A DNA stretch of 64,000 bases from Amoebophrya sp. A120 (lineage: Eukaryota > Protista > Dinoflagellata), in assembly GCA_905178155.1 (NCBI GenBank), contig CAJINV010000001.1, forward strand, positions 10,844,311-10,908,310, read 5' to 3'. The notes under the pieces were generated by a model. The model had not been told where the DNA came from, ran no database searches, and was given only the letters and a program-made list of their open reading frames with translations. The position numbers and the translations under genes are program-made. This document shows positions 2,967-59,655 of this stretch, piece after piece (position 1 is the first letter of the stretch; the number at the start of each line of letters is the position of its first letter).

Positions 2967-5855
2967 ATGCTCAATACCAAGGCAGATAAACTTCTACTCA
3001 GCGTCTACGAGACCGCCCGTCTGCAGGGTGTTCCGGATGGCTGCGTTGGGTTAGCTGTGCGAGAAACGGTTGGTGTGCAGCGGTGTGTGGCTTTCAAGGG
3101 CTGCCCGGGTGTGATCGTCGCGCTCTGTGACTCCGCAGAAAGCGAGCGGGCGTTTGAGGCCAACTTGCACCGCAAACCCTGGAAAAAACTGACGAAGCGC
3201 GCAGCTAGTCTCCAGGTTGATCGGCAGCAGGTCGGGAAAACAGCTGGAGATAATCAACTCGACACGTGTGAGGTGATCCCGGCCTTGGATGACCGGAATC
3301 CCAGCGGCTACGGGAAAAAGATCAACGGTGAGAAACTGCAAGCAGTTTTGTTTGGGCAGCTTCTGGCAAAGGCCACCGGTGCAGCAAAAGCGTCCGTAGA
3401 GAAGCTGGCCAAGGATCTGCAGCCGCTGGTCGTTTCCGTTGGGGCAGACGGCGTGCTCGAGCCTTCGACTGTGGCAAGTTCCTCTGAAAATACTTCGAGT
3501 GAGAAAGCTTTCCAGCCGGCTTCTCGTGGGGCGCCTTCGAGCCCGATGCGAGGACCAGCCCCGGCGGTAGACGTTCTCTGCAACGATCCAGATGGCACAG
3601 CGGGACTGGCGGTGATGCGTGGGCTTGTTGCAAACGCGGACATTCCAAGCCTGGCGACGTCGTTGCTAGCGCACCCGAAGAAAATTCAGGCCGAATGCGG
3701 GGGCTTATGGAATAACAACCAGCCCGAGCCTCTGGGAATGCAGGGAAGAGTAGTTGCTGCGGTGGAAGGACTACCTCTGGAACAGTTCCCCGGTCTGCAC
3801 GGGCGTTTTCGCCTCGATGGAGCCAATGTTGGCGGTCGGACCGCCGATTTGCTCCCGTTGAACCCAAGTTTCGCCGACGTTTTGAAGAAGAACAGCCCAA
3901 ATCAACATGGTTCAGTCCCGGAAGTCTTAGCAGAGAAGCTGCGCCAGTTCCAAACGACGTCACTAGCCGTGTCTTGGGAGCAGGCGAACGGGCGCAAGTT
4001 GTCCCAGGAGCGCACCCTGTGCGGGTGGGCCTACGACGCCGATGCTGTCGATGGCACACCGGCCGTGTGGGTGAACCTCGGACGCGCGCCGGTTACCTGG
4101 GCTTTCAAAAGGCTGAAGAAAAACAACGCGGCCGATTTCACGATCACGCTTTCCCCGGGTGACGCAGCGATTCGCTGGGGGCAGAAGGCGAGGTGCGAAT
4201 GGTGCACTGCCTGTGTCGGGTTGGGAGATAGTGCGACAGAAAATGGAAAAAGGGAAGATGTTGCCAAGAAAGGCGTGCTCGATCTGATCAACGTGAAGCT
4301 GGAGGACCACCGCGCTCTTCGCTCCAAAAACGCCGCCTTGTTCGACAGGTTGCATCGGTCAGACGCGACGCTGACGCCCGATAAGTGGTTTCAGCTCGAG
4401 TTTGAACTTACGGAGAACACGACCACGACAAGCACGTCCGGCTTGGAAATTTCCGCGTTCTGGCCTGGGTCCAGGCCGGCTAAAAAATGCGTCGACGTTC
4501 AGGCTGCGGCTCCGGCTTCGAAGGCCGAAGTAAACTCCAAGCCCCGGTCGGGTAGATGGAACAAACGCAGAAAAACAGGTGACGAGGAGACTGACGCTGC
4601 GCCGACGGATGAACAGCCGGGTGCTCCTAGCTCTTTTGCAGCCGAGGAGAACAGGATATCACTGAAGTCTGCCGCACAGGTGCAAAGCGAGCAAATCGCA
4701 AAGAAGAATCCTCCACCGAAGGAGGATCAGAAACGCGGATCCGGCGCTGTCAGTATGAAATCCGCAGCCCGGGTCGCGGCCGAAAGTCTGTTTGCCGACC
4801 TGCAAACGCACATGGCGAACGACGACCTGATCAAGGGGTGGGAGGCACACCGCCGAACCTGCAACGGTAAGGCCCGTGGTCCCCTCCGCGCCGCCGCTCG
4901 GGACATTCGTCTGAAGGCACAGAAAGCCGCCGGGGAAACGTCTTTGGAATCTTCGACGTCAGGCGCCTACGTGGCGGCACTGCGGCTCTTGCACACGGAG
5001 CTGGCTCGCGCAGGCGAAGCCGACTTCGACGGACAGTTGCGGGATGGCGCTGCGTGGTTGGAAGAAAAACTAGCGAAGGTTGGAAGTGCGCAATCGGCAA
5101 ACAAGGACTTTGTGGAGAACGCCAACAACCCGCGTGAGGGTAGTACCAAGATAGCGGTTTCTGTGGACGAGTCGGTCGTGAAGAATATCCTATGTAAAAA
5201 CGTCCCTACACCAGAGTCAAGCTGGGGATCTCGCAACACAAATCGAGAAGTTTTGGGGGTCCAGCATGATAAGTTCGTCTCTGTATTGTAGTGTAGTTTA
5301 GCAAGCACAGCCGCAACACAAATCCATCTACTTATCCTGTCGACAGCATTACAAAGCGCAAAACGCGATTGGAAATGCCTCTCATGTGGATGCGCATATA
5401 GAAATCTTCCTGTAGCTGCAAATCTGCATGACAACTCTGGGCAAAGTGCGTCGCATTTCGTTTAGCATGACAACTCTGGGGTGGGTACATTTTTACTCAG
5501 GATAAAGAAAGATTATCCGAATCTGCTGGCGCGTTTGATGAAGCAAAGGGCCAGTGGGCACCGAGGAACGGCCTTCACTCGCGACTTGCGGCAAGCCACG
5601 CAGTGGGCGGATTCCTGTCGTGCGAGGTGGCAGAAGCTGCAAAACGACAGCGACCAGCAGCACAAGCAGAATCTCCAAAGTAGTTACCTCGACGCTGTGC
5701 AGCACTTGTGTGCTGAACTGGAAAAAGAAGGCGAGCCTGACTTCGACGGGCAGCTGCGGCGGGCCGTGAACTTTCTCCAGGGTACAAAGATGGAATACTT
5801 CCACCCAGGCCTCGAACCGGGGAAGAAGAAAACTACCAGGTCTTACATAGGCTAA
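2967..5855 (+). CDS. AlkB/2OG-Fe(II)-fold-like protein with duplicated C-terminal helical module; 2 exons (2967-5185, 5510-5855)
   Basis: ORFs 2940..5291 and 5481..5855 share a frame and join as SVVKKDYPNLL after removing 324 nt. GWAYDADAVDGTPAVWVNLG...LSPGDAAIRWG resembles the AlkB core. GEADFDGQLR / GEPDFDGQLR repeats lie on either side of the insertion. Confidence 0.65.
5186..5504. mobile_element. Family A TIR introner (A1)
   Basis: TIR TATCCTATGTAAAAACGTCCCTACACCAGAGT / ACTCTGGGGTGGGTACATTTTTACTCAGGATA; perfect TSD AAGAA (5181-5185, 5505-5509); GCATGACAACTCTGGG is duplicated near the right end; no GT-AG register. Confidence 0.92.
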
Positions 5856-6882
5856 AGAACCCCAGCAAGGGGGGCTCCTGTTTCATATTTGATTCCGCGT
5901 TCTTCTGCCTGTAGCTGTACACTGGTTTTCTGATTGTAAGTAGCACTATGGTGCCCAAGGAAAGGCCGCTCGATCTAAGTTCAAAGTAAAGTAGCACGTG
6001 AAATTGATACGTAAGGATATGTGAATAACACTAAGACGCAGGTGGATTTGCATGGTTGGTTTTCAAGGATTGAGAGTGAGTATCGCTACCTCAGTCCAAT
6101 GCACGCAAGACCGGTTTTAGCTCGATCGTGTGCAGAACAATTGGAGTAAGGATATGAAAATTGTATAGTTTTTTTTCTGTGTGCAGTAGGAGAAGACTAA
6201 GAGCAACAAGCTAACAGTTGTCAATGAAGAATGAGCAGTAGCAATTAGTTTCGCACTACACAGAGAATTCACCAGCACCAAGTAGATCGCGAATTTGATG
6301 CTGATCTAACTGTAGAAGTCATGCAGGGCAGCTTACTTCGACGCTTGCTTTTGCTTTGTCGTTGTCTGTCAGATCTTCATAATCTCTGCGTGCTACCGAT
6401 TGGTGTTCGCCGCATCTAGTACCAAACGTTATCTAATGGTCTTTTGGTAACTTCAAACTCAAAGGTCGTCGCTGTGCCGACGCAGTTTCTGAATGCGTCG
6501 TGCTTTGCAGTCGGTTCCATTCATTTTCCAGTCGTCGCCACAGGTACATCTTTATCTATCATAGAAAAGTACGGCTATTTTTAGCTTGTTCACATTCGGC
6601 GCTTAAGTTTTTTCTCATCAGAATAGTCCCTTTTCTGTCCTCGTGATCGTAACTGTAAGCTTCGTGATCGTGACTACTAACACAGTATCGTTTGGACGAT
6701 CCGTATTGGAGTTTCCTCATACATGATTTGCGTTTGCCCGTCCTGATAGGAACAAAAAAATATTTTTACCCAAAACTGACTACGGCTAAGAATGAATATC
6801 AATATGATTACTGGTATGGTGGAGAGATGCGCGATAGATAAGTTGCAAAAATACTAGAAAAACAAAAGCAAAAAGCAGCATT

Positions 6883-32500: not shown

Positions 32501-35078
32501 CATCTCCAAACCGCGCTCGTTTCTGCAGCTGCCGCAGTGGCATCGCGGCGGTGTGGTATTTGAGCTTTCGTCCACGGGGCCACTGCGTATCCTGGTTTCT
32601 CTTCAGATCGCCGGCGCGGCGCCCGCCCGTAGTACGGGTTACAACTGTTCGGCTGACGATTTTTGTGGGAAGAAATTTAGCCACACGACTCCCCGGGACG
32701 TTCATCTTGACAACAACGCGACGTCGCCGATTAAAAACAAAAATCAGTTGCTTTCTCCAACGCTGTCGCGTGCATCACAGGTGTCGCCTTGGATACCAAG
32801 GGCAAGTGGGCATGCATCAATGCGACGACCGAACCAAACCGGGCACCCCAATGTGTACGATGGGGCTTTATTCAGCCAGATTTTTCGGGAGCTAGATGAG
32901 CACTCCGACCTCGCGAATGAAGTCGCGCAAGCTGCGGCCGAGAAACGAAAACGGCAGAGTGCTCAGTTGGGCGTGCACCTAGATACCAGAGAGCTCAGTG
33001 ACACGACCAGAGAAACCAGCAGGTTTCATCCCCCGGTGTCTCGCCGTCAGGATGAAAAACCACTGCCAGCACTGTCCCCGTTGACCTCAACCCTGGGTGG
33101 CCTCAATCATGGGTGGAGCCATCAGATGAAGAGTCCAGTTGCAGCAGTGGATAGGCTCAAACTGGCGGATCTTCTCGGGGCCATAGCTGCATCGCACGTG
33201 CGCCGAAAGGTCTTTCAGATGACGCTAGCGCACCTGACAGCGGTGCGGTTTGTCGGCAAGCTGGCACTGGACCTCTTTCGCCTGTTTGAAGGCAACATCG
33301 CGCGAGCGGCCGCGAGCCGACGCGGATTGGCGTTTCTAGGCCATCTTCGAGGCGAAATGTTGCTTCGGTCGGGCAGCGATGATGGGCGCGGAATCTTAGG
33401 GGTTTTGGAATCCGGGATGAAAAAGGTATAGGATGCCATACATATCGCGTTTTTTTTTTATTTTTTAGAAGTGAATCTTGTTGAGCGATTGCATTGTTTT
33501 TGATCCTTGCAGTGAGCTGCGATCTTCGCTCGATGTGGATTGCTCTCTGTGGTCACCAGAGAATTTACTTTCTTGTGAAAGCGTTCAACTCTCGCGACAC
33601 GTTGGGAAATTGAGTTGTACTACCATGAAAAATAACGTTCAGCGGCTGGAGGAGTTGTTGCCTGGCTCGCACATGGCCCGGATTTTGCTCGTAATGGGCG
33701 ACTATCTTGTGGTCGCACCGTTTACTGCCATGGTGTTTGTTGACGGGGATAGTCAAAAATATGCCGAGCTCCGGTCCCCAAGCCACCTTCTGAATGCCAA
33801 TGGGACCACGTCAGCTGCCCCTGCTACTACACCATCGCGAACGACGAACACTGCTACCACGACATCAAGAGTGACGAGACATAAAATGGCCTTTGGAGGA
33901 GTTGGCATGTCGAGAAAGCAGCACGTCTTTCTCCCCCGTTCGCGGGGTTTCTCTGGCTACACATCGAGGGCGGGCGGTGGAGGGCAGCAACGCGTTGGTA
34001 GTTTTTCGGCGGCTAGTTTTCACACTTCCAAGCTGGTGAGCAGCAGCGCAAGCCACGTGCGCGCTGAAGGAAGATACTCCACGTGCTTCTATCTCTGCGC
34101 CGACACGCGGCAGTACTACCACGAGCGGGGGGCCTTCCTTGATCCCGAAGTCGACGGTGCGGAGTTGTGCTTTAGCAAACACACGGCGCACACGCTGGAC
34201 GACGTGCATTTTTTGTCGGCGCCGGTGTTCCTCTCGCCGCAGGTAGCGGGGAAGATGCTGGAGGAAGGGAGCCACTTTCACAGCGAGGCCGTCCCCCCAG
34301 ATGTGGCGCTGCTTCAGCAGAAAAACCAGCTTCTGCGCCTTCCACTTCCCCCGTATAGCTTGCTCAGACGCTACAATCTCAAACGTTACAATAGAATCTG
34401 GAATTTGTCTTGCATGCTGAGCATGACAGAATCGCAGAGCGTTCCACTTTCTGCAATACAAACTTCGCCTGATTGTAGTGGGGTTTGGGACTCCGGAACT
34501 TGTCATGCGCGATCCTATGAGAGTTGGCTAGATCATGCACTCTTGCATCACAGATTTCCATATTATATTGTAACGTTTGAGATTGTAACACCTTAGCGGG
34601 TTATACCCCAACCGCGGCCATTTTGCACGCCCAGAAACTACAACCTACAGCCGCGGTCGTTGGGGACACTACTTCAGCGGATCGTGACGAGAATCAAGGT
34701 GGCGAGGGAGGAGCCGCAGGAAACTCGGTAGCAACGACTACTGCACCTCCCCTAACGAGTTGCGCAAGCGGGATGAGCAACATACAACACGACGCCTTCG
34801 CTGTTGTGCAAATACTTTCCTATCGCAGGCCGTTTTCACCCACCGATGTGGACAACTTTCAGCACGCAGTGGATGTCTTCAGCCTCTCGCTCGAATCGGC
34901 TCTGCTCTCCCACTATTTAGATCGGGCCGAATTTGCTACCCTGGGTGAGTAGAGAAGGGCTGTGATCAAAGGTGGAGAAAAATGCAGCTGTTGCTGCACC
35001 TTCTGCTGCGCAGGATTAGAAGCGCGACCCGACCGCAGTGGAGGGGGGCAGATCGGACGAGAAGTGAATAGAATATGA
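29583..35078 (+). CDS. Large, mostly low-complexity protein with a possible degenerate C-terminal GAF-like segment; introns ~33426-33633, 34367-34596, 34945-35013
   Basis: A 1282-aa ORF followed by ORFs joinable in frame. FAVVQILSYRRPFSPTDVDNFQHAV resembles the last strand and helix of GAF domains (weak). End approximate. Confidence 0.55.
34367..34596. mobile_element. TIR intron of a distinct family (D), GA-AG boundaries
   Basis: ~38-bp TIR TACAATCTCAAACGTTACAATAGAATCTGGAATTTGT (from 34372) / ACAGATTTCCATATTATATTGTAACGTTTGAGATTGTA (to 34587); internal GCATGAC (34421) and GTCATGC (34502); removal restores the frame (SLLTGYTPTAA). Confidence 0.78.
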
Positions 35079-36225: not shown

Positions 36226-39200
36226 ATGGATTTTCCAGTAGAAGGAAGTACTCGAACTCGACGCAGGAAGGTCCCCCTCCTCTCCGCCCCATTTCTCTGG
36301 GGGAGCGCACAGCTTGCGGCGTACCTGGTCATCTCCCATGTCGTTACCTCATCCATCCCGGCGGCATCGTACTCGCTGCCGGTGCGCGTCGGCGATCTGG
36401 TTGCGGTCCGAGGGGTGCACGACGGCTCCCTGTTCGAGGTGATTGAAAAACAGGGGAAGGATTCCTGCACGGTGCAGTGCCTACACACGGACAAAGTGAA
36501 CACGGAGAACTGCCGGCTGTTGGAACCCGTGCGCCCTCTGTGGCGGCCCGCGGACGCGCACTGCCTCCGGCTGGAGAAGCCGGCGCCGACAAACGCCTAT
36601 TTTGACCCGCCTCCCGCGGCGGATCCGGATTCTGCGAACGAGGACGGGAGAGGACCACCCGACCATGGGGACGGTGCAGCGCACGTGGCACGGGTGGTGG
36701 CGGAGAGTGTCGCCCGGCCGCTGCAGGTCTGTCCGAGCAGCGCCACCAAGGACAGTATGAGGACGGATCGAGTGCTGAGCGCACTGGCCCGAGCGCACGC
36801 GGCCGACAAGGCTGAGGAGCAACGTAAAGCTGGAGGCGACGCGCCCGCGCCGGTCAGAAGTGGTGGTGGTGCTACTATCAAGGTCGTGGATACGCAGCTC
36901 TTTCGGACCATGAACGCACTATCCGCTGACATGCAGCGCCGGCTGGGGATTGCGACGAACGCCTTGATGTCGTCGCAGAGGTCAGGTGGTAGCTACGCCG
37001 GAGTTCTGGGGCCGCTGGGTATGGGACTGAACAAGCCGCGGGCCAAAAGCGAAGCCGAGATAATGAATGCGTGGCTCGATACGTATCTAGTGGCCGCCGT
37101 GGAGGAAGTGATGCAGCAGCAGGCCGCCGTTGAAGGAAGTGCGGTCGCTTCCGTGGCGGCGCTCAAGTGGGTCGAGTCTAGAGGGCGGGGAAGTGGATCA
37201 TCGCTACAAAGTTCGCGGGAGGAACATCAAGTGCAAGTGGACGCACTCGCACAGCTGGCGCGGACATCCCACGGAGCAGGCTCCGCGGGGACAACGCCGG
37301 GAGTCTCTGCGTCGCCGACGGGGCGAGTCGCAGCTGCCTTCGGGGTGATGCAAGCCCGCGCAGACAGGGAGCGGCGGACTACTGTCGACTTCCAGTCTAA
37401 TAGGTATCTACGCGTCTTTTTTTTGCGTTATTCGATGAATATCTACCTGCTACAACCTTTGCCGTTCTGCCGGGTCCGAGATTTATTTCTGATTTGACTT
37501 CCTCTGATCAACCATGTTGCATTCGCCTTGGCATAAACTACACTAAGTAAGCGCTGCGGTTGAACATGCGAAAGAAGTATTGACCATGCATAGAACCTTC
37601 ATCACTTTGATCGCACTAAAACAGATTTCACGAAACTCGCGCCCCTCTGCCAAACGAGGAATTATTTGCCGTCAAAAACTTGGAACGGCGGAAGGCGTGG
37701 GAATATGGACTTGAAGATTATATCGAGCGCGGAAGTGCCGTAGCGGGACATGACTCAGCCTTGACCGAACCACCACACGCTGCGAAAGTGCTAACGGTAT
37801 CTCCAAACTACGACGCAAACACTGGCGAGTTCAAGGGTGTCGGTCTCGCCTGGGTTCTTGCGAGAGAGAGTGGGCTACAACTACAACTGCCTGCCGCGGG
37901 CGGGGACGATCCTCGTGGAATTCTGTACAGGAACGCGCAATTGTGGGCGTTAGCGGAGTCTTCAAACCCGGCGAAACTGCCCTACGCGGTTGTCGACGAG
38001 GAGGAGGTATCAAATGTAAAAATGTCTGGGTCTGGAAGATTGCCAGGTTTGTCATGCACATTTTGCATGACTCCTGATGTCTGTGATGCATGCCGTAGCA
38101 TCACAGATTTTGTGAGGGCTTCCTGATGCCTATACCGCATGACAAATGCTCTTTCCGCGTAGCAAAACTTGGACTCTCTTTGCTGCTCATGCGATACAGA
38201 TTTTTTTAGAATCCAAAATCAGCATGACAAGTTGGATTCTTCCAGACCCAGACATTTTTACATTTGATAGGAGGTGGCGCGGCAGTTTGGCGCGGGCGCG
38301 GTGTCCCACTTTTTCAACAACGACCTCCGGCAGATGCGGGACCAGCGTCTCAGCTACGTCCAAACCGGGTACTGGAACCAGAATCGGGGAAGCGCCTCGC
38401 TGTTCCCACTGCTGATAGTGCTGATCGTGCTGGCCAGTCTGGGCATCCTGTTCCAGGTCTCGCTGCTCGTGCCCCTGGGAAAGGACCCGGAGGTGGATCC
38501 CGCCTGGATGCGGGAGGCCGCCTTGTGGGAGATGTGGCGTGCGGAAAATCCGGACGAGGAGTGCGAAAGCATCGCGGACGTGAAAAAGCGTCTGGAGGAA
38601 TTCAGATTCAAGCTCGAGAGCGAAAGCAAGGGAGTTGTACCAGACACGACGACCGCATCTACTTCTTCACATCTCGGAAACCCGTCGGAAGTGCAGCCGG
38701 TTGTTCCCAGTACGGCGCCGGTCGAAAAAAACCAGGTGGACGGGAACACCAGTCAGGAAAACCAGGAGGACTTCCCGGAGCTGCGGTCGGAGGAGGATTT
38801 TCTGCAGCCGAAGCTGTCCAACTTGAAGCCGTCTTCCAAGCGACAGCACGCACTGACGGCGGAGGAGAGCGAGTTTCTGGGCAAGCAGGTGGCGGCGTTC
38901 CTGGAGGATCAGGACGTCGAGGGGCGGTTCGAGCGCTCCAATTCGGGGACGACGGACTCGGAGCTGGGCGGGCACAAGGGGCTGGCGAAACAAAACGCCG
39001 TGAAGAATGCAACCGTCTGTGGGGACAAGGGGCAGGAGATGCGCGAGGCCGCGCTGAAGGCCGCGAGAGGCCGCCACGCCGGCATTTGGTGCGACCGCCG
39101 CAAGCGCCGGCCCTGGGCCAACCGGTGGGGCACCGGCGGTGGCTCGGATCATCAGCAGCCGGGAGTCGTCGTCCCGGGCTCCTCCCCGACGGGGTCGGCG

Positions 39201-42200
39201 ACCGAAAACAGCAATGGCGGGCTCCTGTCCGACTTCCACTCCGCGAACAAGAACCAGCAGGTATCCTGAGTAAAAACGTACCCACGCCAGAGTCGGGATG
39301 GGGATTTTGCAACACAAACCTAGGAGTTTTGTGAGTCACGCATGACAAGTTTCAGTCCGTAAGGTAGTGCAAGTTAGCAAGGAAAGCCGCATCACAAATC
39401 GATCTGCTGATCCTGTTTACAGCATTACAAGTTCCCAAACACGATTGAAAATGCCTGTCATGGGGTTGCGCATCACAAATGTTCCTGTCATGGCAAATCT
39501 GCATGACAACTCTGGTGTGGGTACGTTTTTACTCAGGATAACAGGTTACCAGCTACAAACCGGCCGGGCACGAGGTGCAGATCGCCTACGACCGTAACTA
39601 CCCGCCGGCGCTGGCCTACCCGCTGCCCGGGGACGACGACCTGTCTTGCTGGTCGGATTTTGGCGAAGAGTCTCCCAAGCGGAACAAGGCCCCCCGGTCG
39701 TCGACCGATAGCGACCAGCTGCATTTCACCGGCAGGTAAGTAATATGCATATACATTGGGCTGTTGTTCTAGTGTATGACTTTTGATGCTTTTCCACCAT
39801 CTTCAAGGGTCATTGTCCTTTGGAACTTACTAGATGATTGACATTCATGATCTTTCATGTCAGTCATTGTCCCATGTTGGAGTAGTTGACGCTGCTCCTG
39901 TTGTTGGTTGTCACTGGTCTTTGTCTTTCTAGAGCATTCATTGCTTGAAAGTCCCTACAATGCCATTCGTTACTGCATCAAAAATAAGTCGTTGGGGAGG
40001 TGCACTTCGGGCACACTTAGTCGCATCGAAAGATGACGCGCCACGCTTTTGTCATGTAGTTCATGTGAACCTCAGTAAAAAAAAAATCTAAACGAATTCA
40101 TTGACATGATCTTCAGGTCTTCGAATCATGTGGATTCCTGTGTGCCACTGTACTGCGGTTTTGGGGACCACGAAGACTCGCAGGAAATAGGCACGTCCAG
40201 CGCCAGCAGTGTGATGGCGGACTTTCATCGCGCCGGAAACAACGGAAACCTTAGCTCAAGCAGCAGCAGCGCGAAAGACCTGTTCTGGTCGGACTATCGG
40301 AACTCAAAACTACTGGTGAACAAGCGAGACGGCATATCCTGCGTAAAAACGATCCCAGTTATATGTAGTGAGGTCACCGAACGGTTCTAACCGGGGAGTT
40401 TTTTTGCCATGTCCCGTGAAAAACGACCGTCAGTTTTCAAGCGGTCGGAAGCGTTTTTTGACATAAAAAATTTTTAATTATCAAGCGGTCTGTGCTTTGC
40501 TGTCAAACAAGCCCGGTCGTAAACTATCGATTCGCACTTGATAAAACGACGCAGGGGAGCCGGCAAAAGGGGCGCCCTTCTGAGGCGCCCGCCGCCTTAG
40601 TTTCTGGCGATTTGGGGCGCCCAAAAAGGGGCGCGCAAAAAACGCGCCCAAAATCAGAACAGCGAAACAGCATGGCACGGCCGCGATTTCGGAGCATTTT
40701 GGACGGCCGCGAAAGCGGCCGCCTTTTCGCCGGTTTCAGAGCCTGGGAAGCTTTGCAAAAAGCGCCGGCGTGAAAAATAAAAACGCGAAAAAGAAAAAGC
40801 GGCCCGCACGCGCAAAGCCAATCCGCATGCTATGGGCCCGATTTTTCTTCGCTTTTTGGGCGCCCCCCGTGGCACCCGGATCGGCCCCATAGCATGGGGG
40901 CTGGCTTTCGGGAAGGAATTTCGGGAATTTGCCAAAATTTGCGATGTTTCCCAAGTGGCCGCCATACCGTGCGGCATAACGTTACTCGCGGTGGTATGGT
41001 GAGCCCATAAAAAGCAAAGCCGCGGCCAAGGCTGCGGTCGGCAAAAAAACGCCCACGACCTCACTACCCCCGCCCCGGCGGCTATATTTGGTACCCGATT
41101 GTCAACAACTACACGGATTTATATGCGCAAACAAACTCCCGGCGAGCTTTGCGGCTTGCTAACGCATGAGGACACGACACGAGCTGGATTTGTAGCATAG
41201 TCGTGTCCTGCTCCTGTAGCTAATCTGGCCGCATAACTACACATCCACGGCCTCATCCTGATATTGGAGTTGTACATTTGTACAAAGTTGCTGGTTCCAA
41301 ACAACTACAACATGTTGACTAGTACGAATAGACTAAAGAGCCGCAACAGAAACAAGCATGCGAGTATGTTGCTGCTTAAGTTAGGGCAAATGAGATTATA
41401 CATTATACATATGATATACGTCATGAAAAACCTTGGGCGGGGACGTTTTTGCTCAGGATACGGCACACGCGGGTCCGGTTCTGACGAATTGGAGCCTTTC
41501 CCTGAGGCGGACGAGGAGGACTTGGAAGATTTCCCCGACCTCGACGAAAATTCGGAGTGGGCGGACCCTGGGCAGGGCCCCGGGTACTCCGTCCGCGCGG
41601 TGGACCCGGCGGCGATCCACAGCGATCTGATTTTCTCCGGCCGAGAGCTTCCCGAGGACTGGCACCCGCCTGCGGGTCCGCCGTCGGCCGCGTATCATGA
41701 TGTGGAACGGGAGGGACGAGGTGGTGCTCCTGCTCGTGGGAACAAGCTGATGAGTGGGTCGTCCGACGAAATAGACGATGGCGAGCTGGAGGATTTTCCA
41801 GAAATGGAAGATTGCCCCGACAACGAACTAAACTTGTTTGCTCCTCCTGCGAACGGTTCGAATTTCGACGACCAGCCGGTGTCGTCGAGGAGGTTCCACA
41901 ACCTGAGCGGGTCGGACGACGCAAATTTGGAGGACTTTCCGGGGATGGAGGAAGAGGAATACGACCACCTGTGCGCCGGCCAACATCTCGCACGGGGCAA
42001 CAACCAGGAGCAACCGCTGTTGAACCAAGTTGGCGAGACGCAAAGTCAAGCGGCGGCTACTTCCGGGACAATCAGAAGTACGTTGAATAACAAAATGGAT
42101 GAAGAGGTCGATGACTCCGTGCTAGGTGATGCGAAAAATGGTCGCCGGGCGCCTCATTTGCAGCGCAGTCGCAGTTTCCCGCTGCCCCAGAGGAATCCTG

Positions 42201-44207
42201 GGGATAGTACGGACAGCGCGACATCAGCGGGGAAGCAGGATGATGAGCTGTACTTCCAGAGGTTCAACGAGCGCTGGAACAACGGTAAAAGCCAACAGAA
42301 GTTAGCTATGCCACCTCTGGCGCCCAGCCTGATGAGCCGAAATCTGCTACCGAAGTCCGGGTTAGACAACGAGCGCAGCGCGTCTACCATTCACGAATCG
42401 CACAGCTCTTTGGAGCAGTTTCCCGGTAGCGGCGTGGACAGCTTGCAGAAACGCGACGTGGCCGAACTGCCGTCCCCGATGGAAGACCGCAAAAACGTGG
42501 AAAGCCTGCCCGGGTCGCACGTGTACTCCGACCCGCCGGCGCTGCAGGAACGGGACAACATGTCCTTTGTCGTCGCAGACTACCATCAAGGAAGCTCCTC
42601 CTCGTTCGGGGGAAACCATAAAACGGACGTGAACCTCCAGTATGAAGACCATGACAACGGAATGAAGATGTTGCAGCAGCCCCGAGGAACGGACTGGGCC
42701 CACGTGCCGGCCAAGGATCTAGGCTTTGTGGCACAACAAGAGGAGCAACAAGTAGCCTCCACTCCTAGCACGGCGGGAGTTGTTGTTGGGCCTCAGAACA
42801 AAACACCAGTGGAAACACCAGTGGCTCCAAGTAGAACGCCGGCAGCAGCTGCTGCGGTGCCGCAAGTTCTAGTACAACAACATCTTCCCCAAACTACGAG
42901 CCGTAAGTACTCGAAGCCGCTGGAAACGGGCGCGGATCATGCTTTCGCGGAGAGATCTACCGACACCGGAGGGAGCGGGGGCCCTCGGACGAATAGCACC
43001 AGCACCTCCAACGGATCGCCCACCGGAGTCCGGGGGCACACGAACGAAGACGCCGTGTACGCGACTGCGAATCTTCCCCCGAAGCGCCGCCTGACGCGGT
43101 CCTATCAAATGTAAAAATGTCTGGGTCTGGAAGAATGCAACTTGTAGTGCGTATTTCAGAACACAGAAAAGTCTCTCATGCATACGTAGCAAAAGCTCCC
43201 ACTTTTTGCCAGCAAAATAGGGGACTTGTCATGCGGATTCGGCATTGCGGAAGGTTCTCGAAACCTGTGATGCTAGAGCTTCCATGCCAGACCTTCTCTG
43301 TCATGCAAAAACAGCATGACTCTTCCAGACCCAGACATTTTTACATTTGATAGGTCCATCAGCGACACCAATCTGTACGGCAGCGGAGCCGCTGCGGGGA
43401 AGGAATCCGAGAGGCGAACGAAGTGGAGGGATGCCAAACAAATGATCAAAACAGAGAAGGCCAAGAACGCGGTCAAGCAAGCGAATGCTGTCACGCACGT
43501 TGAAAATAAATGGAACGCCACCACCGTGCCGGCGTTGGAGACGTCGATGGTATGATTTAAGTACTATATTTGTACCGCTGAAATAAAGATGACGCGGGTA
43601 CTCATATAAGTAAGTCAAAGTTATGTAAAAAACTTCTAACACCGATGATCATGAACATGATTGCGTCTTCAAGAGCAGTGAAAGTTCTCCATTCTATTTG
43701 ACTTTCGTTCGTGACATCAACTCCGTATCATGCTAGCGGCACGTTCGACCCTGTTGAAAGCAAAAGGTGGAAACCCCAACCCCGCAACATACCGTCTCAC
43801 AAGGACGAGTTGCGTGTATTAAAAATAGGTGAACGTCGACTGAATAACATTAATAAACCAAATGAAACTTCTATATACAGGTGCAGCAAGAGTACTCGAA
43901 CCGCGAGGCGGGGCTGGAGAACGACAAGCTGCGACACGCTGCAGGTCTCGATACGGACTCGGACAACTTTGATTGTCGAACGGACAGCACGGAGGAGGAC
44001 GACGTTTCGGACCGGAGCAGCCTGATGTACTACCAGCAGGCCCGGTACCATCGGTTCGGCCACAGTGGCGAAAGCGGGGATTGGCACTACAGCGAGGGCG
44101 GGCCCTACGGGGAACGCGCCCGCAAGGCCTTCGTCATGTCCCTTGTGACAGAGAAGACAGAAGAGCTCTACGAGATTCTCGACCGTTGTGGCATCCACGT
44201 GCGGTAA
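36226..44207 (+). CDS. Large hypothetical membrane protein with acidic LEDFP repeats; 7 introns, 4 of them TIR introners
   Basis: Exons 36226-37403, 37625-38006, 38274-39260, 39545-39735, 40117-40334, 41466-43098, 43354-43549 and 43881-44207 all join in frame. Hydrophobic N-terminal segment, a TM helix (LFPLLIVLIVLASLGILF) and four (E/N/D)LE(D/P)FP repeats at 41487-41945. Confidence 0.75.
38008..38269. mobile_element. Family B TIR introner (B1), GT-AG intron 38007-38273
   Basis: Perfect TIR TATCAAATGTAAAAATGTCTGGGTCTGGAAG / CTTCCAGACCCAGACATTTTTACATTTGATA; TSD GGAGG; removal gives VDEEEVARQFG. Confidence 0.95.
39262..39540. mobile_element. Family A TIR introner (A3), GT-AG intron 39261-39544
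   Basis: TATCCTGAGTAAAAACGTACCCACGCCAGAGT / ACTCTGGTGTGGGTACGTTTTTACTCAGGATA; TSD GCAGG/ACAGG; interior homologous to A1. Confidence 0.93.
40335..41460. mobile_element. Family A-type introner (A5, 1126 bp) carrying a nested family F element
   Basis: TATCCTGCGTAAAAACG...GGGCGGGGACGTTTTTGCTCAGGATA; perfect TSD CGGCA; removing 1131 nt gives KRDGTRGSGSDEL. Confidence 0.9.
40361..41067. mobile_element. Family F element (short copy) nested in the left TIR of A5
   Basis: ATAT-GTAGTGAGGTC...GACCTCACTAC ends; 40361-40540 is homologous to 54357-54537, and 40541 onward to 55888 onward. Confidence 0.82.
43103..43352. mobile_element. Family B TIR introner (B2), GT-AG intron 43099-43353
   Basis: Perfect 31-bp family B TIR; TSD GGTCC; near-identical to 47811-48061; removal gives RLTRSISDTNLY. 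Confidence 0.95.
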
Positions 44208-44895
44208 AAGAAAAGTTTGGGAGTAGTTCTCACTCGAGATTTGTCTTCCGTCTTGCGGGGAATGATATAAGTAAGTACTTACTTCCCTAGCTGCCTGCTC
44301 TTCTTCTAGGGCTATTAATTATATCTTCCGTGTCGAATGAGTAAAATACGCTGGTGGAATAAAGAAAACTGAAAGCAGCACGGTTCTCGGTACGCCTGTA
44401 CAGCGCTCTGCGAAATGTCTATGATAAAATTCGACCTCTATGTCGCGAATTATAATCAACATCTAGAGAAGGGCAAGCCGCGAACTTTTGTAAACACCTA
44501 TCCAACGACTTATAAGTACTTGAAGGAGATGAAATATGGTGATAGCGATAATTTCTAGATGTACTGCGAAACAATGTAGTATCCTAAGCGACGCGCGACC
44601 CGGGTGCTAGTAGAACCTCCTCCAGATAAGACTCGAACCACTTAGGGAAGCACTTTCGTAGTTTATTACGATAGGGAGTAAAGTTGAAAGAACTTGGATC
44701 AGTAGCTCCTGGTATAAACAAACGATCAAACGACTTCTTCATTTGATGGTGCCAAAAAAATGTACCTGACTGTAAAAAATAAAATTTGTACAACGAGTGA
44801 TAAGTATGAAACCTCCGATGCTGGCAAGACCCTCGTCGTAAATAGTCATTTTTGGAACGATGTTGTTTCTGTAATTCATTTTGGCTCCTCAAGGT

Positions 44896-44936
44896 CCGGT
44901 CGACGAGACCGGTTTGAAACCGGTTTCGTCGACCGG
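44896..44936. repeat. Near-perfect 41-bp palindrome
   Basis: CCGGTCGACGAGACCGGTTT-G-AAACCGGTTTCGTCGACCGG; 19 of 20 arm positions are complementary. Confidence 0.85.
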
Positions 44937-45436
44937 TTTGTTGCCGTAGATTTTTCAAGGATTGTTGCGTTTATTTTTCGTTGTACTCTTGATTGTCATC
45001 CCTTCTCTGAGTCAGCGTTTGAAAGTGCGTTGCTTTGGCACCACGAGCCATTGGCGTGCCCATGTTTTCTTGACTTTCGTTTTGCCGTTATCTTGTTGAG
45101 CGCGATCAGCGTTGTGGAGTCGTCCCGATGCTATCTTCTTTGTTTTCCCAAATCTTTCGAGAGACAGCTGCAACAGTCGTTGCTCTAGCAGGAGTGGCGA
45201 GTGCAGTGGTTCGCTTCTTCAAAATTGCTGCTGCTGTTTCAAAGACTTGATAATCGCGGCGAATACGCGAGTGCGGAAATGCGGAGAGAAAAGATGAGCG
45301 GATCAAAATGAACTGTTTTTTCTGCAGATCAAACGTGGTCTGAGCTTGAGCAGTACTGGCGCAAGGAGAGGAGAAGCAGAAAGAAAATATTTAGCACTTC
45401 CCCGGACGACGGAGGGAAACAAAATAGTAGAAAAAA

Positions 45437-46774
45437 ATGACGGAAACTATCGCAACACGCCCCGCGCCGGTGGGTTCCTCCACCGTGGCGTCAACTGAGC
45501 AGGCATCATCCTCCAGCAAGAACACAGCCGTCGTTGCAGACGCAGAGGCACTGCGGAAGAAGCGGGTTCTGGAACTCTGCATGAACTTTGTCCAGCTCCT
45601 CCGAAGAAGACGGTTCAGTTTTTTTGTTGCGCATACAGTAGTTTTCGTTTCGCATACAGTTTCGCGGCTGGGCGAGAACAAACATGCAAAAGGGGGCGCA
45701 TGACTCGAGACAGAAGTTCTTTCACTTTTAAAGACAAAGAAGGTTCTTGCCGCGTGTACTTCTGGATGACCATCTTGTTGTCGCGGAAGAATCCCTGTGT
45801 TTCGTAGTGTTGTCGAGCGTGTAAGTACTTCCAATCAAACGACTAAGGTTCAAGCCCGCGTTGGAGATGGCTGGGGAGATTTTAAAGTTAGAGCCAAACC
45901 ATCCGCAAGTGGTTATCCTGAGTAAAAACGTCCCCACCCCATAGTTGTCATGCAGATTTGCGATTACAGGAAGATTTGCAATGCGCATCTCCATGAGCGG
46001 CATTTCCAATCGCATTTTGGAATTTGTAATGCTGTAAACGCGATGAACAGATGGATTTGTGATGCGGCTGCACTTGCTAAACTGCACTACAGGACGGACT
46101 GGAATTTGTTATGTGTTGCTCCCAAAGCTTCTGGGTTTGTGTTGCTAAGTTCCCAAGTTGACTATGGGGTGGGGACGTTTTTACATATGATAGTGGTACA
46201 GCACCTGGACATGCTGGAGGAATTGGCAGCGTCGTCTTCGGAGTCCGACGCGGGTTCCAGTTCCTCCTCCTCGTCCGATTCCGAGGAGGACGAGCCCGAG
46301 CTTCACTACGTGGCCACTCAGCAGTTCAACCCACAAGACTATCAACATGAATTGAAGTAGTGTCCCCACCACCGGCCCACATGGCAAAGTTTTCAAATAA
46401 AGACTTTTGGTCCGCGTCTTGCACGTTTCTTTGAGCGAAGACTATCTCTGCTTCAGATTCATCTAGGTGCGCGAAGCAGCTCCTACATGACAAGTCCCCG
46501 CCCCGGTGCTGCGCCGTTCGGCAACATAGACACTCGCTAATATTCTTGCTTGCAAGAAATGTGTCATGCTGATAAAAAATGCCAGGTCGTGGCAAGTGTT
46601 TTCATAATTGGGAACTGTTGCAATGCAAACATTTTCCCTTTCATCTGGGGTGGGGGCGCCTTTCAATTTGATAAAGACGGGGAAGCTGGCTCCACCCGCC
46701 CGCCCTCGGTCGGCGGGGCGGCGTCGGATACAGGGACCGCACCCTCGGAGTATCCCGTGCGGCGCCTCGACTAG
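45437..46774 (+). CDS. Small ERICH2-like (TPR-like helix pair plus acidic Ser-rich tail) protein; 3 introns
   Basis: Exons 45437-45612, 45848-45913, 46198-46339 and 46679-46774 give NFVQLLRRRRFKPALEMAGEILKLEPNHPQVVQHLDMLEELAASSSESD...NPQDGEAGS. The ERICH2 resemblance is from memory. Confidence 0.65.
45914..46192 (-). mobile_element. Family A TIR introner (A4), inverted relative to A1/A3
   Basis: TATCCTGAGTAAAAACGTCCCCACCCCATAG...CTATGGGGTGGGGACGTTTTTACATATGATA; perfect TSD GTGGT; interior is the reverse complement of the A1/A3 interior. Confidence 0.92.
46340..46673. mobile_element. TIR introner with A/B-hybrid termini
   Basis: TATCAACATGAATTGAAGTAGTGTCCCCACCACC...CTGGGGTGGGGGCGCCTTTCAATTTGATA; perfect TSD AAGAC; removing 339 nt keeps the frame. 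Confidence 0.85.
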
Positions 46775-47216
46775 TTTTTGTGAGAAACAATCTGGATCAC
46801 AACTTCATTCGAAATTTTTACCAAATTGTGGCTCCCTCGCGTGCAGCCACACGTGAACTTCTCGACAGGCGAGATGCATATTATCGAAATGAAGAGAACT
46901 GATTTGAACACGCAGTGCCTCGCTGTAGCATCGAACAAATTTTTTGCTGATCAAGAAGCTACTGTTCCGACATCTCAGCATTACCTTCTCTCTCCTTTCG
47001 GTCTTCGCGCACGATTTCGATTGCATTCTTGCACTGCTGCGTGTTGTCTGTAGCATCGACGCATCGTCTGCTTTTCCGATTGATTGTTTTGATGGAGAAT
47101 TTCCGTGCAGAAGCAGCTTTTGCACCAAGAGAAAAGAAGCAGCGTTTCGATCAAGAAAAAAAAGCAGCTTTTACATTCAACAAGAAAGAAACAGATTTGA
47201 CCTCAAAGAAATCAGC

Positions 47217-48823
47217 ATGGTGTACACCGGCACCCCAAAGATTTTTCTGTACGGCGACAGCTTGACGTATCACGAGAAAAAAGTGTTACAGTTACACAGT
47301 AAAGTGCAAGCCCAGCATGACAGGCAACCTCTGTCATGCCAGAAATGCTTCTGAGGTTCATTTCATACGTGTTTTCCCTTATGGTCTGCGCATTGCAAGT
47401 TTTCCCTCTCATGCAGAGAAAATTTGTGTTGCTGAAGGTACAACAAATGTGTATCTGTAACACTTTTTTCTTGTGATATGACGCAGTACGGGTCTAGTGA
47501 GGTTGGCGGGTGGGCGGCCCGCCTCCAAGGCCTTTACAGTCGCCGCGCCGATGTTGTGAATCGTGGCTTATCGGGCTGGAATAGCCGCTGGGCGCGCGAA
47601 TACGTCGATGGTGTGGTCTCGCGCGACCTCGGTAACGACAAGTGCATGTTTGCGAGTGTGTGGCTCGGCGCGAACGACGCCTGGCTGCCGTCCGCGACCG
47701 CGGGGGGTAACAAAGGCAGCCGGTATGCGGTTGGTGTGGAAGACTTCAATGCGAATCTGTCTTACATAGCGAGGTGTTTGCTTGACAAGACGGATCTGGT
47801 CTTCGTTCTCTATCAAATGCAAAAATGTCTGGGTCTGGAAGAATGCAACTTGAAATGCGTATTTCAGAACACAGAGAAGTCTCTCATGCATATGTAGCAA
47901 AAGCTCCCCACTTTCTGTCAGCAAAATAGGGGACTTGTCATGCTGATTCGGCATTGCGGAAGCTTCTCGAACTCTGTGATGCTAGAGCTTCCATGCCAGA
48001 CCTTCTGTGTCATGCAAAAACAGCATGACTCTTCCAGACCCAGACATTTTTACATTTGATATTCTCACCCCACCTCCCATCGCGGAAGACCGGCGCAGGG
48101 CGTACGCCCTCCAGCTATACAACGAATATGTTTGCGATCGCGAGCTATGCATATGGTAAAATATGTCGTGGTGGTCTGGAAAGTTATAAATGCAATTTTG
48201 GGAATTATGATCAGATTACATCAGATTGGCGCACTGCAATACGTGGCCGAGCATGACAAGTGTTGCAAAGGTTTTAATGGCGACGGTGCAAAGGTTTTTG
48301 ATGAGGTGCAGTCGGGTATGCGTGAAAAGTGTTGCCATGTGTTGCGCATTCGGCATGGCAGACTGCATTTCTGCATGACAGGCAAGACGATTTTTTCGTG
48401 GCTATGCATTACAGAGTTCAGAGCCATGCCCGACGAGCATGGCAAACCTTCCACTCTTTCAGACCCAGACATCATATTTGCACTGGATACGAAAACGCGC
48501 ACACAGGAAAATACCGGGACGAAGTGAAGAAGGTCGTCGACAGCCTCAGCCAGGCGATAACTGTACGTGGCGAGAGCAAGCGAGTCGTCCTAGTGGACGT
48601 GTATGAACTGTTTTGGTCGCGCAGAGAGGACTTGCTACCTGACGGCCTCCATCTCGGCGAGGAGGCAAATACGATCCTGTTTGGCCACCTGAGTTCCCTT
48701 CTACACACCGAGGGTCTGGGCGTTGTCGCAGATCCGGTACGGGGACACACGGGGTGCAGTGCGGCGAAGAGCTCCCTGCCGAATCCGCTCCCTTGGCACG
48801 ACGACACAGCGCAACTGAGATGA
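47217..48823 (+). CDS. IAH1: Isoamyl acetate-hydrolysing esterase-like SGNH/GDSL hydrolase; 3 introner introns
   Basis: Reconstructed KIFLYGDSLTQYG, RRADVVNRGLSGWNSRW, VWLGANDA, VFVLTPPPI, DRENAHTGKY, LPDGLHL. Exons 47217-47267, 47484-47810, 48067-48143, 48493-48823. Confidence 0.9.
47268..47478. mobile_element. Family C TIR introner inserted in the GDSLTQ catalytic block
   Basis: TIR TATCACGAGAAAAAAGTGTTACAG / CTGTAACACTTTTTTCTTGTGATA; perfect TSD TGACG; internal GCATGACAG..CTGTCATGC. Confidence 0.93.
47811..48061. mobile_element. Family B TIR introner (B3), no GT-AG register
   Basis: Family B TIRs; perfect TSD TTCTC; removing 256 nt restores VLTPPPI. Confidence 0.95.
48146..48489. mobile_element. 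Degenerate family B introner
   Basis: TATGCATATGGTAAAATATGTCGTGGTGGTCTGGAAAG...CTTTCAGACCCAGACATCATATTTGCACTGGATA; TSD CGAGC/CGAAA; removing 349 nt gives YVCDRENAHTGKY. Confidence 0.78.
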
Positions 48824-49368
48824 AAACCAAAAGAGCGCCGTTCAGCATCAAGCAGCTGCCCGTGAGAAGGGCATTGATGAACTACGATGTCGTGTGTCTG
48901 TTGATGTTCCTTGCTCTAGCTCTGTGAATGTCGTGTCTACTGCCTTCATTGAAAAAATCTGTCTGCCGAAGGATCACCCGTCATCCTCGGCCAGTTGATT
49001 TCTGACTGCCAGTAAGAAGTACCACTTTGTGAAACTGAAAACAAACAGATCGGAACGCTGAAGATGCTCGCTGATAGCTCGAACACAACTAGAAGGGTGC
49101 GATCAAATTACTTTGACTTCTACGGGAGCAGAAACACTCCCAGTAGCAACATACGCTAAGCACTTTTTTGTCCTGAACTCTCCGCTTGGCGTTGTACATC
49201 AAATTTTTCCGCAAAAACCTTGCTGCTCTTTTCATCTTGTATACAGCGAGCGCTCCTCTCTGTCCCAAAAAGAGAACGGAACTTCCTCTAGGAGTTCGAC
49301 GTCGGGGAGTTTATGCAGCGAGCAAAGTACTGCTCAGGTAGAGCACGAAGAGCAAGTACAAAGCAACA

Positions 49369-50411
49369 ATGTCTTCCGGTTGTCCTGCGAGCAAGAAATT
49401 TCAAGTTCTGTGCCTGCACGGCCACGCCCAGACAGCGGAGGCGTTTCGGGGTCGTATCGGTTCCATACGCTCGCCGCTGAAGAAGTGGTGCGATTTCCAC
49501 TTTCTAGACGGCCCCTTTGAGGTCCCTCCGTGCGCGCATTCCGCCGAGCCGGCGCGCAGCTGGATGCAAGTGAGCCCGGACACGGCGCCGAATGTTGACC
49601 CGAAGACAGTTTTCGAGTCTTGGCAGACGAGTCTGGAGTTCATTGATAGAATCATCGCTGAGAAGCAGATCGACGCTTTGCTGGGGTTCAGCCTGGGGGC
49701 GGCGATGTCGCTCGGGGTGATGCTCAACGACATCGCAACTGTGAGTCGAGGAACAAACGAAGGACCCGAAACAGCATCTTCAAGATATAAGTTCGTCGCC
49801 CTCTTCGCTGGGTTCATCCCCTTCAAAAACCCCGAGCTGGAGCACATCTTGCGAGCGAAACTGAGAGAAGTTGGATATCGTAGGGGAAAATCCTCCCTCC
49901 CCATATCGAAAAGATATGTCTCAGAAAATTTGTAATGCTGATTTGTGTCCACAAATCGTCTCTGTCTTGCAAGAACGCAACTCCACTGGCTCCGCCGCAT
50001 TCTGCAGGCGGTTTGTGATGCTGTTGGCCCTACAGACTAGACGTTTGCCATGCTCAGCGCCTGGCCCAAAACGTCGCTACTCAGTCTGAGTACACTACGC
50101 ATAGGCCTGCAGTCCTCTCCAGCACGACAGGCCTGATTTGTGTACGCAAATCCAGCGTCAGAAACTTCGCGGCGATATGGGAAGGGGGGATTGTTCCTTT
50201 TGGTATCGGAAGCTCCAGGCTTCCGCCAAGTTTTCACTGTTACGGGATGGACGACCATATTATTCTTGCAGAGCACAGTGAGGAGGTCGCCACTTTTTTT
50301 CCCGATGCCTGCGTCTTTACTCACCCAGGGGGGCACTTGGTGCCCTCCCAAGCAAAAAATCCGCTGCGCGATTTCGTGCAGCTACTAAGCGAAAAATCGC
50401 AGGCGCCCTGA
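49369..50411 (+). CDS. FSH1/OVCA2-family serine hydrolase; exons 49369-49875, 50211-50411
   Basis: VLCLHGHAQT, FLDGPF, LLGFSLGA (nucleophile), then PSFHCYGMDDHII and HPGGHLVP (Asp, His) after removing a 335-nt insertion. Confidence 0.9.
49876..50205. mobile_element. Family E TIR introner
   Basis: Imperfect ~33-bp TIR TATCGTAGGGGAAAATCCTCCCTCCCCATATCG / CGATATGGGAAGGGGGGATTGTTCCTTTTGGTA; TSD TTGGA/TCGGA. Confidence 0.85.
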
Positions 50412-59562: not shown

Positions 59563-59565
59563 GCC

Positions 59566-59655
59566 AGGGCAGGGCAGGGCAGGGCAGGGCAGGGCAGGGC
59601 AGGGCAGGGCAGGGCAGGGCAGGGCAGGGCAGGGCAGGGCAGGGCAGGGCAGGGC
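59566..59655 (+). repeat. (AGGGC)18 pentanucleotide microsatellite
   Basis: 18 perfect AGGGC units, counted directly. Confidence 0.97.

What the first reader, a model, noticed from the sequence alone, without database searches (positions are those of the whole stretch)
5181..50210. Multi-family TATC...GATA TIR elements with 5-bp TSD behave as precisely removed, mostly non-GT-AG introns
Seen in sequence: 14 insertions in six genes (starts 5186, 25052, 26163, 26926, 38008, 39262, 40335, 43103, 45914, 46340, 47268, 47811, 48146, 49876). They come from at least four TIR families plus a hybrid, with largely unrelated interiors but shared TATC/GATA-type tips and 5-bp TSDs (9 perfect). In every case element plus one TSD removes to an intact frame, often through conserved motifs (GDSLT|Q, DFGL|A, VL|TPPP). 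Only 4 allow GT-AG in any register. Established: inverted-repeat introners and abundant non-canonical introns are reported in Amoebophrya, but to my knowledge their removal mechanism is unresolved. Inference: removal is guided by the TIR hairpin and TSD, either at RNA level (atypical spliceosome or endonuclease-ligase) or as stage-specific DNA excision similar to ciliate IES elimination.
Basis: partly seen in the sequence, partly recalled or inferred. Interest (0 to 1): 0.9.

Follow-up and report, generated by a model that had tools for sequence, protein, structure and literature searches.

The report
Transposon-born hairpin introns of Amoebophrya
Small jumping-gene insertions that interrupt genes of the algal parasite Amoebophrya A120 are present in its DNA but missing exactly from its messenger RNA, a phenomenon already published for this genome; one imperfect copy here likely reveals the fixed cut position, which the original study left unknown.

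Summary
Observation confirmed: 14 of 14 elements, 9 perfect 5-bp TSDs (shuffles: mean 0.02), six genes, 4 GT-AG-compatible; two more found. The window is Amoebophrya sp. A120 (a window-encoded protein is 100% identical to a named A120 protein), and the elements match the A120 introners of Farhat et al. 2021 (TAT-N7-AAA inverted repeats, short direct repeats). The phenomenon is therefore known. Of 10 elements laid with reads, RNA fixes exact removal of element plus one TSD for 5, implies it for 1 (about half retained), partly supports 2 and is silent for 2. A DNA run holds the elements in place, so IES-like DNA excision is disfavoured. New here: at the imperfect TSD of 48146 the RNA contig reads CGAG|A, placing the cut 1 nt before TAT and 4 nt after ATA. 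That is the register of three GT-AG copies and lies outside the microhomology that RT slippage or DNA repair would use (one case, inferred from contig coordinates). Best reading: RNA splicing in a tip-measured register by an altered spliceosome (0.55); separate hairpin-guided machinery 0.3. The scan noted one similar intron in another dinoflagellate.

The parts
5186..5504 (.). Family A element, TSD AAGAA/AAGAA, no GT-AG in any register; in an 863-codon frame
   Evidence: no RNA laid here
24408..24735 (.).
   Evidence: join collinear with the AT5 orthologue P0016; no RNA laid
25052..25324 (.). Family A element, TSD AACGG/CAAGG, GT-AG when cut 1 nt before TAT; kinase gene
   Evidence: no RNA laid
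26163..26389 (.). Degenerate element (right tip CATG), TSD ATCGT/ACCGT, no GT-AG; kinase gene
   Evidence: published A120 model P0015 joins across it as NIVASDT; collinear with AT5
26926..27106 (.). Element with TATG/CATA tips, TSD TCTCG, inside the kinase DFGL|A motif
   Evidence: collinear with AT5 DFGLAV; no RNA laid
34354..34605 (.).
   Evidence: no RNA laid
38008..38269 (.). Family B element, TSD GGAGG, GT-AG-compatible, opposite orientation to 43103 and 47811
   Evidence: X3 contig skips 267 nt = 262+5; X9 has no read at 5 listed interior places
39262..39540 (.). Family A element, TSD GCAGG/ACAGG, GT-AG-compatible
   Evidence: X9 has no read at 39295 and its bin depth drops; the join itself is not shown
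40335..41460 (.). 1126-bp composite: family A tips around a second repeat; TSD CGGCA; no GT-AG
   Evidence: 14 X9 reads continue from the left TSD into 41466 onward; X9 depth 0 over 40487-41368
43103..43352 (.). Family B element, TSD GGTCC
   Evidence: 19 X9 reads continue from the left TSD into 43358 onward; X3 contig gap 196 nt as predicted
45914..46192 (.). Family A element in reverse orientation to 5186, 25052 and 39262; TSD GTGGT
   Evidence: no join shown
46340..46673 (.). Element with weak TIR match (11/20), TSD AAGAC
   Evidence: whole in DNA contig; a depth-3.4 X3 contig lies inside it; no join shown
47268..47478 (.). Element in GDSL|TQ of an SGNH hydrolase, TSD TGACG
   Evidence: X3 contig piece stops at 47479, one side only; collinear with AT5
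47811..48061 (.). Family B element (95% like 43103), TSD TTCTC, no GT-AG
   Evidence: X3 contig gap of 83 nt equals 48062-48144
48146..48489 (.). Hybrid element, TSD CGAGC/CGAAA; the only copy that pins the cut (join CGAG|A)
   Evidence: X3 contig resumes at 48494 with 0 other letters; gives DRENAHT, like AT5 DRTNAHT
49876..50205 (.). Element with degenerate right tip (GGTA), TSD TTGGA/TCGGA, FSH1 hydrolase gene; partly retained in RNA
   Evidence: X3 retained contig 49846-50237 at depth 15.6 against 31.1 upstream; break points fit a spliced path TTGGA; annotated P0011 equals the joined product 235/235
22534..27730 (+). Ser/Thr protein kinase gene (approximate bounds) with four elements and canonical introns
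   Evidence: Pkinase on the AT5 orthologue
47218..48822 (+). SGNH/GDSL hydrolase gene with three elements
49369..50412 (+). FSH1 serine hydrolase gene, A120 protein CAD7926833.1

Best explanation
These are short non-coding TIR insertions with a 5-bp target duplication in Amoebophrya A120 genes that stay in the DNA and are removed from the RNA, likely by an altered spliceosome cutting in one fixed register measured from the repeat tips. Shown: element plus 5 nt is missing from transcripts and the protein is restored. Inferred from one copy: the 5' cut falls 1 nt before TAT (N|TAT) and the 3' cut 4 nt after ATA, so the mRNA rebuilds one TSD from 4 left and 1 right letters. Inferred: the symmetric TIR supplies, in either orientation, a donor-like N-U-A-U and a U-run 11-19 nt before the 3' cut, and usually a terminal stem that holds both ends together; the +1 G and the AG are not required but are favoured. 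Inferred from established transposon biology: the elements spread as MITE-like passengers of a 5-bp-TSD transposase encoded elsewhere, a candidate being the integrase-related A120 family 38.
For: RNA removal: 14 and 19 raw X9 reads cross 40335 and 43103 exactly, X9 depth is 0 inside 40335 with 20-57 per direction beside it, X3 contigs fix 38008, 47811 and 48146. DNA run X1: listed unique contigs cross 15 of the 20 element-flank junctions without a break at the TSD. Register: X3 contig 12 resumes at 48494, not 48490 or 48495; 49876 and 26163 need at least 2 left letters kept. The same register gives GT-AG in 3 of 16 copies, against an exonic AGG frequency of 0.018 (binomial p about 0.003, a test chosen after seeing the data). 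At this register 16 of 16 donors read N-T-A-T; 9 of 10 canonical donors listed have A at +3 (one of these donors was later moved). All 9 commonest A120 non-canonical motifs in Farhat Table S4 begin N-T. Farhat found 83 of 89 spliceosomal proteins and U2, U4, U5, U6 but not U1 in A120. Family B is removed in both orientations (38008 against 43103 and 47811). Fritillaria shows that changed U2AF and snRNA modification can widen splice-site range (abstract, discussion).
Against: The register rests on one copy and on contig coordinates, not raw reads; a variant or assembly error at 48145 would leave cuts at the TIR edge open. Table S4 motifs come from an aligner that can slide within the TSD, so they are only consistent with the register. 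No lariat, branch point or spliceosome dependence was tested. In 10 of 14 copies neither GT-AG pair exists, which ordinary spliceosome chemistry tolerates poorly (own knowledge). Euglena introns have a similar fixed spacer from a paired motif and are cut by unknown machinery. The U-run and TAT may be transposase signals only.
Confidence: 0.55

Rival explanations
1. Removal is at RNA level but by a separate, non-spliceosomal machine (endonuclease plus ligase, or a protein that measures 1 and 4 nt from the TIR stem), as proposed for euglenid nonconventional introns.
For: No G or AG is needed; terminal stem predicted with mean pair probability 0.72-1.0 in 13 of 15 folded copies; orientation-independent; U1 not found in A120; Euglena code has fixed asymmetric spacers from a paired motif (abstract); the copy with a damaged right tip (49876) is partly retained.
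Against: The register coincides with GT-AG in 3 of 16 copies, more than chance; 15% of canonical A120 introns have the same repeats, a continuum that one machine explains; 48146 is removed although its ends are predicted not to pair (0.01).
Confidence: 0.3
2. Stage-specific DNA excision, like ciliate IES elimination.
For: Life stage of DNA run X1 is not on record; Logan contigs drop rare variants (tool note).
Against: No break at the TSD in 15 listed DNA junctions; RNA holds both forms of 49876; the 48146 join lies outside the CGA microhomology that end-joining would use. With no separate germ-line nucleus known in Amoebophrya (recalled, not checked) excised copies would be lost from descendants.
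Confidence: 0.04
3. The joins are reverse-transcriptase slippage across a hairpin between direct repeats; real mRNA keeps the elements or the genes are dead.
For: Hairpin plus direct repeats is the classic substrate (own knowledge; a paper search for it found nothing); X9 carries tagmentation adaptor ends, so cDNA was likely made before fragmentation.
Against: X9 shows no reads inside four elements of an expressed gene; retention breaks all 16 frames; joined proteins are collinear with AT5 orthologues; the 48146 join is not in the shared letters.
Confidence: 0.03
4. RNA-level removal with a variable register, sliding within the TSD to the best local GT or AG look-alike.
For: Farhat Fig. 3 legend calls splice sites variable relative to the hairpin; 43103 offers GT-AG at another register; Polarella introners use several frames; perfect TSDs hide the register.
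Against: At 48146 the join gives CT..AA ends, no better than other registers; all constrained copies (3 of 3) fit one register.
Confidence: 0.08

Closest known systems
Introner elements (non-canonical introns) of Amoebophrya sp. A120, Farhat et al. 2021, PMC7789003 (read: abstract, sections 10-12, 16, 32, methods parts 1 and 3 of 3, supplement passages)
   Same: Same strain; TAT-N7-AAA inverted repeats; 3-5 nt direct repeats (5 bp in Fig. S19 legend); about 240 nt; RNA-seq-supported removal; many families; no internal transposase; mechanism open.
   Different: Nothing in kind. The paper leaves border positions unknown; this report proposes a fixed N|TAT register, and notes orientation independence and partial retention.
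A120 introner families of Gozashti et al. 2025, PMC12130899 (read: passages; Dataset S2 rows 1-40 of 58)
   Same: 58 A120 families, mostly TIR DNA of unknown superfamily, about half of the sites non-canonical; family 38 is annotated 'Ginger, 5-bp TSD, TA/TA termini' with homology to a Copia-type putative transposase.
   Different: Automated TSD and splice-mechanism calls vary between families; I did not match window elements to named families.
Euglenid nonconventional introns (PMC12501133 abstract; review PMC11282704 passages)
   Same: Paired ends, TSD-like repeats, no GT-AG, fixed asymmetric spacer between paired motif and exon, unknown machinery.
   Different: Signature N3CDG..CHG N5-6|R is absent here (+4 is T in 16 of 16); spacers here would be 1 and 4 nt.
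Fritillaria borealis non-canonical introns (PMC13326754 abstract and discussion part 1; PMC11282704 passages)
   Same: MITE-derived, TIR and TSD, removed by a modified spliceosome.
   Different: Favoured ends AG-AC/AG-AT, U1 kept, U2AF duplicated; here the first and last letters come from the TSD and vary freely.
Polarella and Symbiodinium introner-like elements (bioRxiv 10.1101/2020.10.14.339549, passages)
   Same: Class 12 has a 5-nt TSD and can take the donor from the last TSD base plus the first element base and the acceptor from NNAGG; several classes work in both orientations.
   Different: They need G at +1 and AG; here 10 of 14 lack GT-AG.
Ciliate internal eliminated sequences (recalled)
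   Same: Transposon-derived, precise removal leaving one copy of the target repeat.
   Different: Removed from DNA, TA boundaries; here kept in DNA, 5-bp TSD.

Membership tests
Amoebophrya A120 introner elements | Host genome is A120 | tested here: met
   P0011 100% identical, named A120; P0015 is an A120 gene model
Amoebophrya A120 introner elements | Terminal inverted repeat with motif TAT-N7-AAA | tested here: met
   22 of 28 tips exact; 13 of 14 elements on at least one tip (counted; motif)
Amoebophrya A120 introner elements | Direct repeat of 3-5 nt at the borders | tested here: met
   5-bp TSD, 9 of 14 perfect, rest 3-4 of 5
Amoebophrya A120 introner elements | Removed from transcripts | tested here: met
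   5 of 10 laid elements fixed, 1 implied, 2 partly, 2 not shown
Amoebophrya A120 introner elements | Repeated in the genome | tested here: met
   Two families with 3-4 copies in the window; X1 summed depth up to 3e5 on elements against about 43 on flanks, not a copy number
MITE / non-autonomous TIR DNA transposon | TIR, TSD, no coding capacity | tested here: met
   no Pfam family in 11 ORFs of the three larger repeats
MITE / non-autonomous TIR DNA transposon | Cognate autonomous element with a transposase | not testable with these tools
   No whole genome held; Farhat found no transposase in A120; family 38 is a candidate
U2-type spliceosomal intron | GT (or GC) ... AG ends | tested here: not met
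   GT-AG possible in 4 of 14 only; no GC-AG register among the 16
U2-type spliceosomal intron | Lariat with 2'-5' branch, spliceosome dependence | not testable with these tools
   No lariat or inhibition data
U2-type spliceosomal intron | Fixed cut position aligned with donor consensus | tested here: inconclusive
   One copy pins N|TAT, two more are compatible
Ciliate-type IES (DNA elimination) | Absent from somatic DNA | tested here: not met
   15 of 20 junctions crossed unbroken in listed X1 contigs; 5 not among listed records; one DNA run of unknown stage
Euglenid nonconventional intron | N3CDG ... CHG N5-6|R signature | tested here: not met
   Ends listed; signature
Euglenid nonconventional intron | Release as full-length circular RNA | not testable with these tools
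   No suitable library laid

The most novel reading that the evidence does not exclude
Amoebophrya A120 has a general detox route that turns any insertion with TAT...ATA tips into a perfect intron: it cuts at fixed distances from the tips (1 nt before, 4 nt after), ignores the identity of the first and last intron bases, works in both orientations, and needs no U1; this would be either a spliceosome that has dropped both terminal dinucleotide rules or a second nuclear splicing machine.
Probability: 0.5. Interest if true: 0.75.

Novelty: already known. Interest (0 to 1): 0.35.

Why it matters
The elements are published, but how tens of thousands of introns with arbitrary ends are removed is open. 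Imperfect-TSD copies read out the cut position from RNA-seq that already exists, which separates a relaxed spliceosome, a hairpin-measuring nuclease, DNA repair and RT artefact. A tip-measured, orientation-blind route would explain how several transposon families invade exons at little cost, and would offer scarless removable inserts.

Tried and rejected
No whole genome is held, so no genome-wide census or transposase search. No holder is on record as RNA; X3 was judged RNA because its contigs also lack a canonical intron. X8 does not cover the host genes and X9 not the genes at 45338-50600, so they say nothing there. The joints table was filled by X1 repeat-to-repeat joints (477 rows hidden), so joins were read from loose ends and contig pieces. 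Elements 5186, 24408, 25052, 26163, 26926 and 34354 have no RNA laid on them; 34354 and 25052 would have tested the register. A protein search with a kinase exon found nothing; no annotated copy of the SGNH protein came up. Rfam found 0 matches in the window. No Pfam family in ORFs of the larger repeats. No direct-repeat join restoring a frame across the 54347-56490 repeat was found. Cryptic in-frame GT-AG pairs within 30 nt exist for 14 of 16 elements but are not used at the joins shown. My kinase model still has 4 stops after the last guessed canonical intron. Searches for a published mechanism or register found none beyond the papers cited; subscription papers and bioRxiv supplements were not seen, nor figure images (Farhat Figs. 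3, S19-S25), which may show the same register. The template-switching paper search returned 0. Look-ups of earlier findings by place and sequence were empty.


Full report
Observation. All 14 starts are real TIR elements of 181-344 bp, plus one of 1126 bp, with 5-bp flanking repeats, 9 of them perfect. A scan for TAT..ATA pairs with at least 11 of 16 TIR matches and a perfect TSD finds 9 in the window and on average 0.02 in 100 shuffles. Two more were found, 24408-24735 and 34354-34605. Removing element plus 5 nt opens long frames in seven genes; retention shifts the frame in 8 of 16 and meets a stop in the other 8 (one read by eye).

Identity. The first exon of the gene at 49369 is 100% identical to an Amoebophrya sp. 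A120 protein (CAD7926833.1), whose 235 residues equal the product joined across 49876. A second A120 model joins across 26163. Farhat et al. 2021 describe A120 introners with inverted repeats starting TAT, seven variable bases and at least three As, direct repeats of 3-5 nt, 29,850 members in 1,954 families, no U1 snRNA found and no transposase. 22 of 28 tips here fit that motif. Orthologues from strain AT5, whose introns are 99.98% canonical, align without a gap at 6 of the 7 kinase and hydrolase joins tested; the seventh (25052) lies in a poorly conserved stretch. This is a member of a known class in the genome where it was described.

RNA against DNA. Reads were laid on 37400-50600, which holds 10 elements. 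In raw RNA run X9 (2865 of 3186 reads at 99% or more) 14 reads run from the left TSD of 40335 into the sequence after the right TSD and 19 do so at 43103; depth is 0 over 40487-41368, and no read covers the listed interior places of 38008, 39262, 40335 and 43103. Contigs of X3, which also skip a canonical intron, skip 267 nt at 38008 (262+5) and leave gaps of 196 and 83 nt that match exact removal of 43103, 47811 and 48146. 47268 is seen on one side only; 45914 and 46340 show no join, and a depth-3.4 contig lies inside 46340. At 49876 a contig of depth 15.6 retains the element against 31.1 upstream; its ends (49846, 50237) are those expected of a 31-mer bubble whose other path reads TTGGA. In DNA run X1 the eight listed unique contigs cross 15 of 20 element-flank junctions with no break at the TSD; the other 5 are not among the listed records. 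X1 may be the source of the assembly and its stage is unknown.

Register. Perfect TSDs hide the cut. At 48146 (CGAGC/CGAAA) three products are possible: CGAAA, CGAGA or CGAGC. The tool places joints at their leftmost position; the X3 contig resumes at 48494 with no other letters, which only CGAG|A gives. The 5' cut is then 1 nt before TAT and the 3' cut 4 nt after ATA. It yields DRENAHT, with the Asn of the AT5 orthologue. 49876 and 26163 are compatible. The join lies outside the shared CGA that RT slippage or microhomology repair would use. The same register gives GT-AG at 25052, 38008 and 39262 (3 of 16; p about 0.003 after the fact), all 16 donors read N-T-A-T, and the nine commonest A120 non-canonical motifs all start N-T (aligner-dependent). 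Caveat: one copy, a contig, and a variant at 48145 is not excluded. Farhat's Fig. 3 legend leaves border positions unknown; five paper searches found no later answer.

Mechanism. Shown: insertion with a 5-bp duplication, persistence in DNA, exact loss from RNA, in both orientations for family B. Inferred: a fixed tip-measured register. Predicted: a terminal stem in 13 of 15 folded copies, but not in 48146, which is still removed, so tip sequence may matter more than the stem; the copy with a damaged right tip is the one partly retained. Most likely (0.55) a U2/U5/U6 spliceosome with relaxed +1 and AG rules, given the overlap with GT-AG copies, the 15% of canonical A120 introns with the same repeats and the Fritillaria precedent. 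A separate hairpin-measuring machine as suspected in Euglena stays at 0.3; variable register 0.08; DNA excision 0.04; RT artefact 0.03. For mobility, A120 family 38 is annotated as Ginger-like with a 5-bp TSD and TA termini; no transposase ORF lies in this window's larger repeats.

Verdict. Observation confirmed; interpretation partly supported; already known class. Interest 0.35, for a concrete and cheap test of an open splicing question rather than for the elements themselves.

Noticed in passing
window, interiors of the 16 elements: GCATGA/TCATGC occurs in 15 of 16 elements of otherwise unlike families, 6.5 per kb against 0.4 per kb in ten canonical introns and about 17-fold over the rest of the window (top of many 6-mers, families not independent). 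Possibly a shared transposase or splicing-factor site.
   Followed up: partly
window 59864-61374: 1.5-kb element with family A tips (CATCC.../...GGATA), long nested inverted repeats, inner TACCAAA tips, no TSD, apparently outside coding sequence; no Pfam hit in its ORFs.
   Followed up: partly
window 40358-41070 and 54354-56490: A second repeat type (GTAGTGAGG...CTCACTAC) sits inside element 40335, and a 2.1-kb relative follows an ORF that ends at 54361; no frame-restoring join found. The 1126-bp composite is still removed exactly.
   Followed up: partly
window 38221-38269, run X8: About 130 X8 RNA reads match the family B right end with 3 changes and continue into a further 30-nt inverted repeat, while the window's genes have no X8 reads: a transcribed, unspliced relative at another locus.
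   Followed up: no
window 47479-49875: One X3 contig runs at even depth through the SGNH gene, the spacer and the FSH1 gene; long UTR or read-through, not proof of one transcript.
   Followed up: no
window 22534-48822: AT5 orthologues of the kinase (g6778) and the SGNH hydrolase (g6775) have neighbouring gene numbers, suggesting kept synteny.
   Followed up: no
window 59565-59660: Run of about 19 GGGCA units.
   Followed up: no
window 1-64000: All genes and canonical introns that I modelled are on the + strand, and elements cluster: none found between 5505 and 24407, ten between 38008 and 50205.
   Followed up: no
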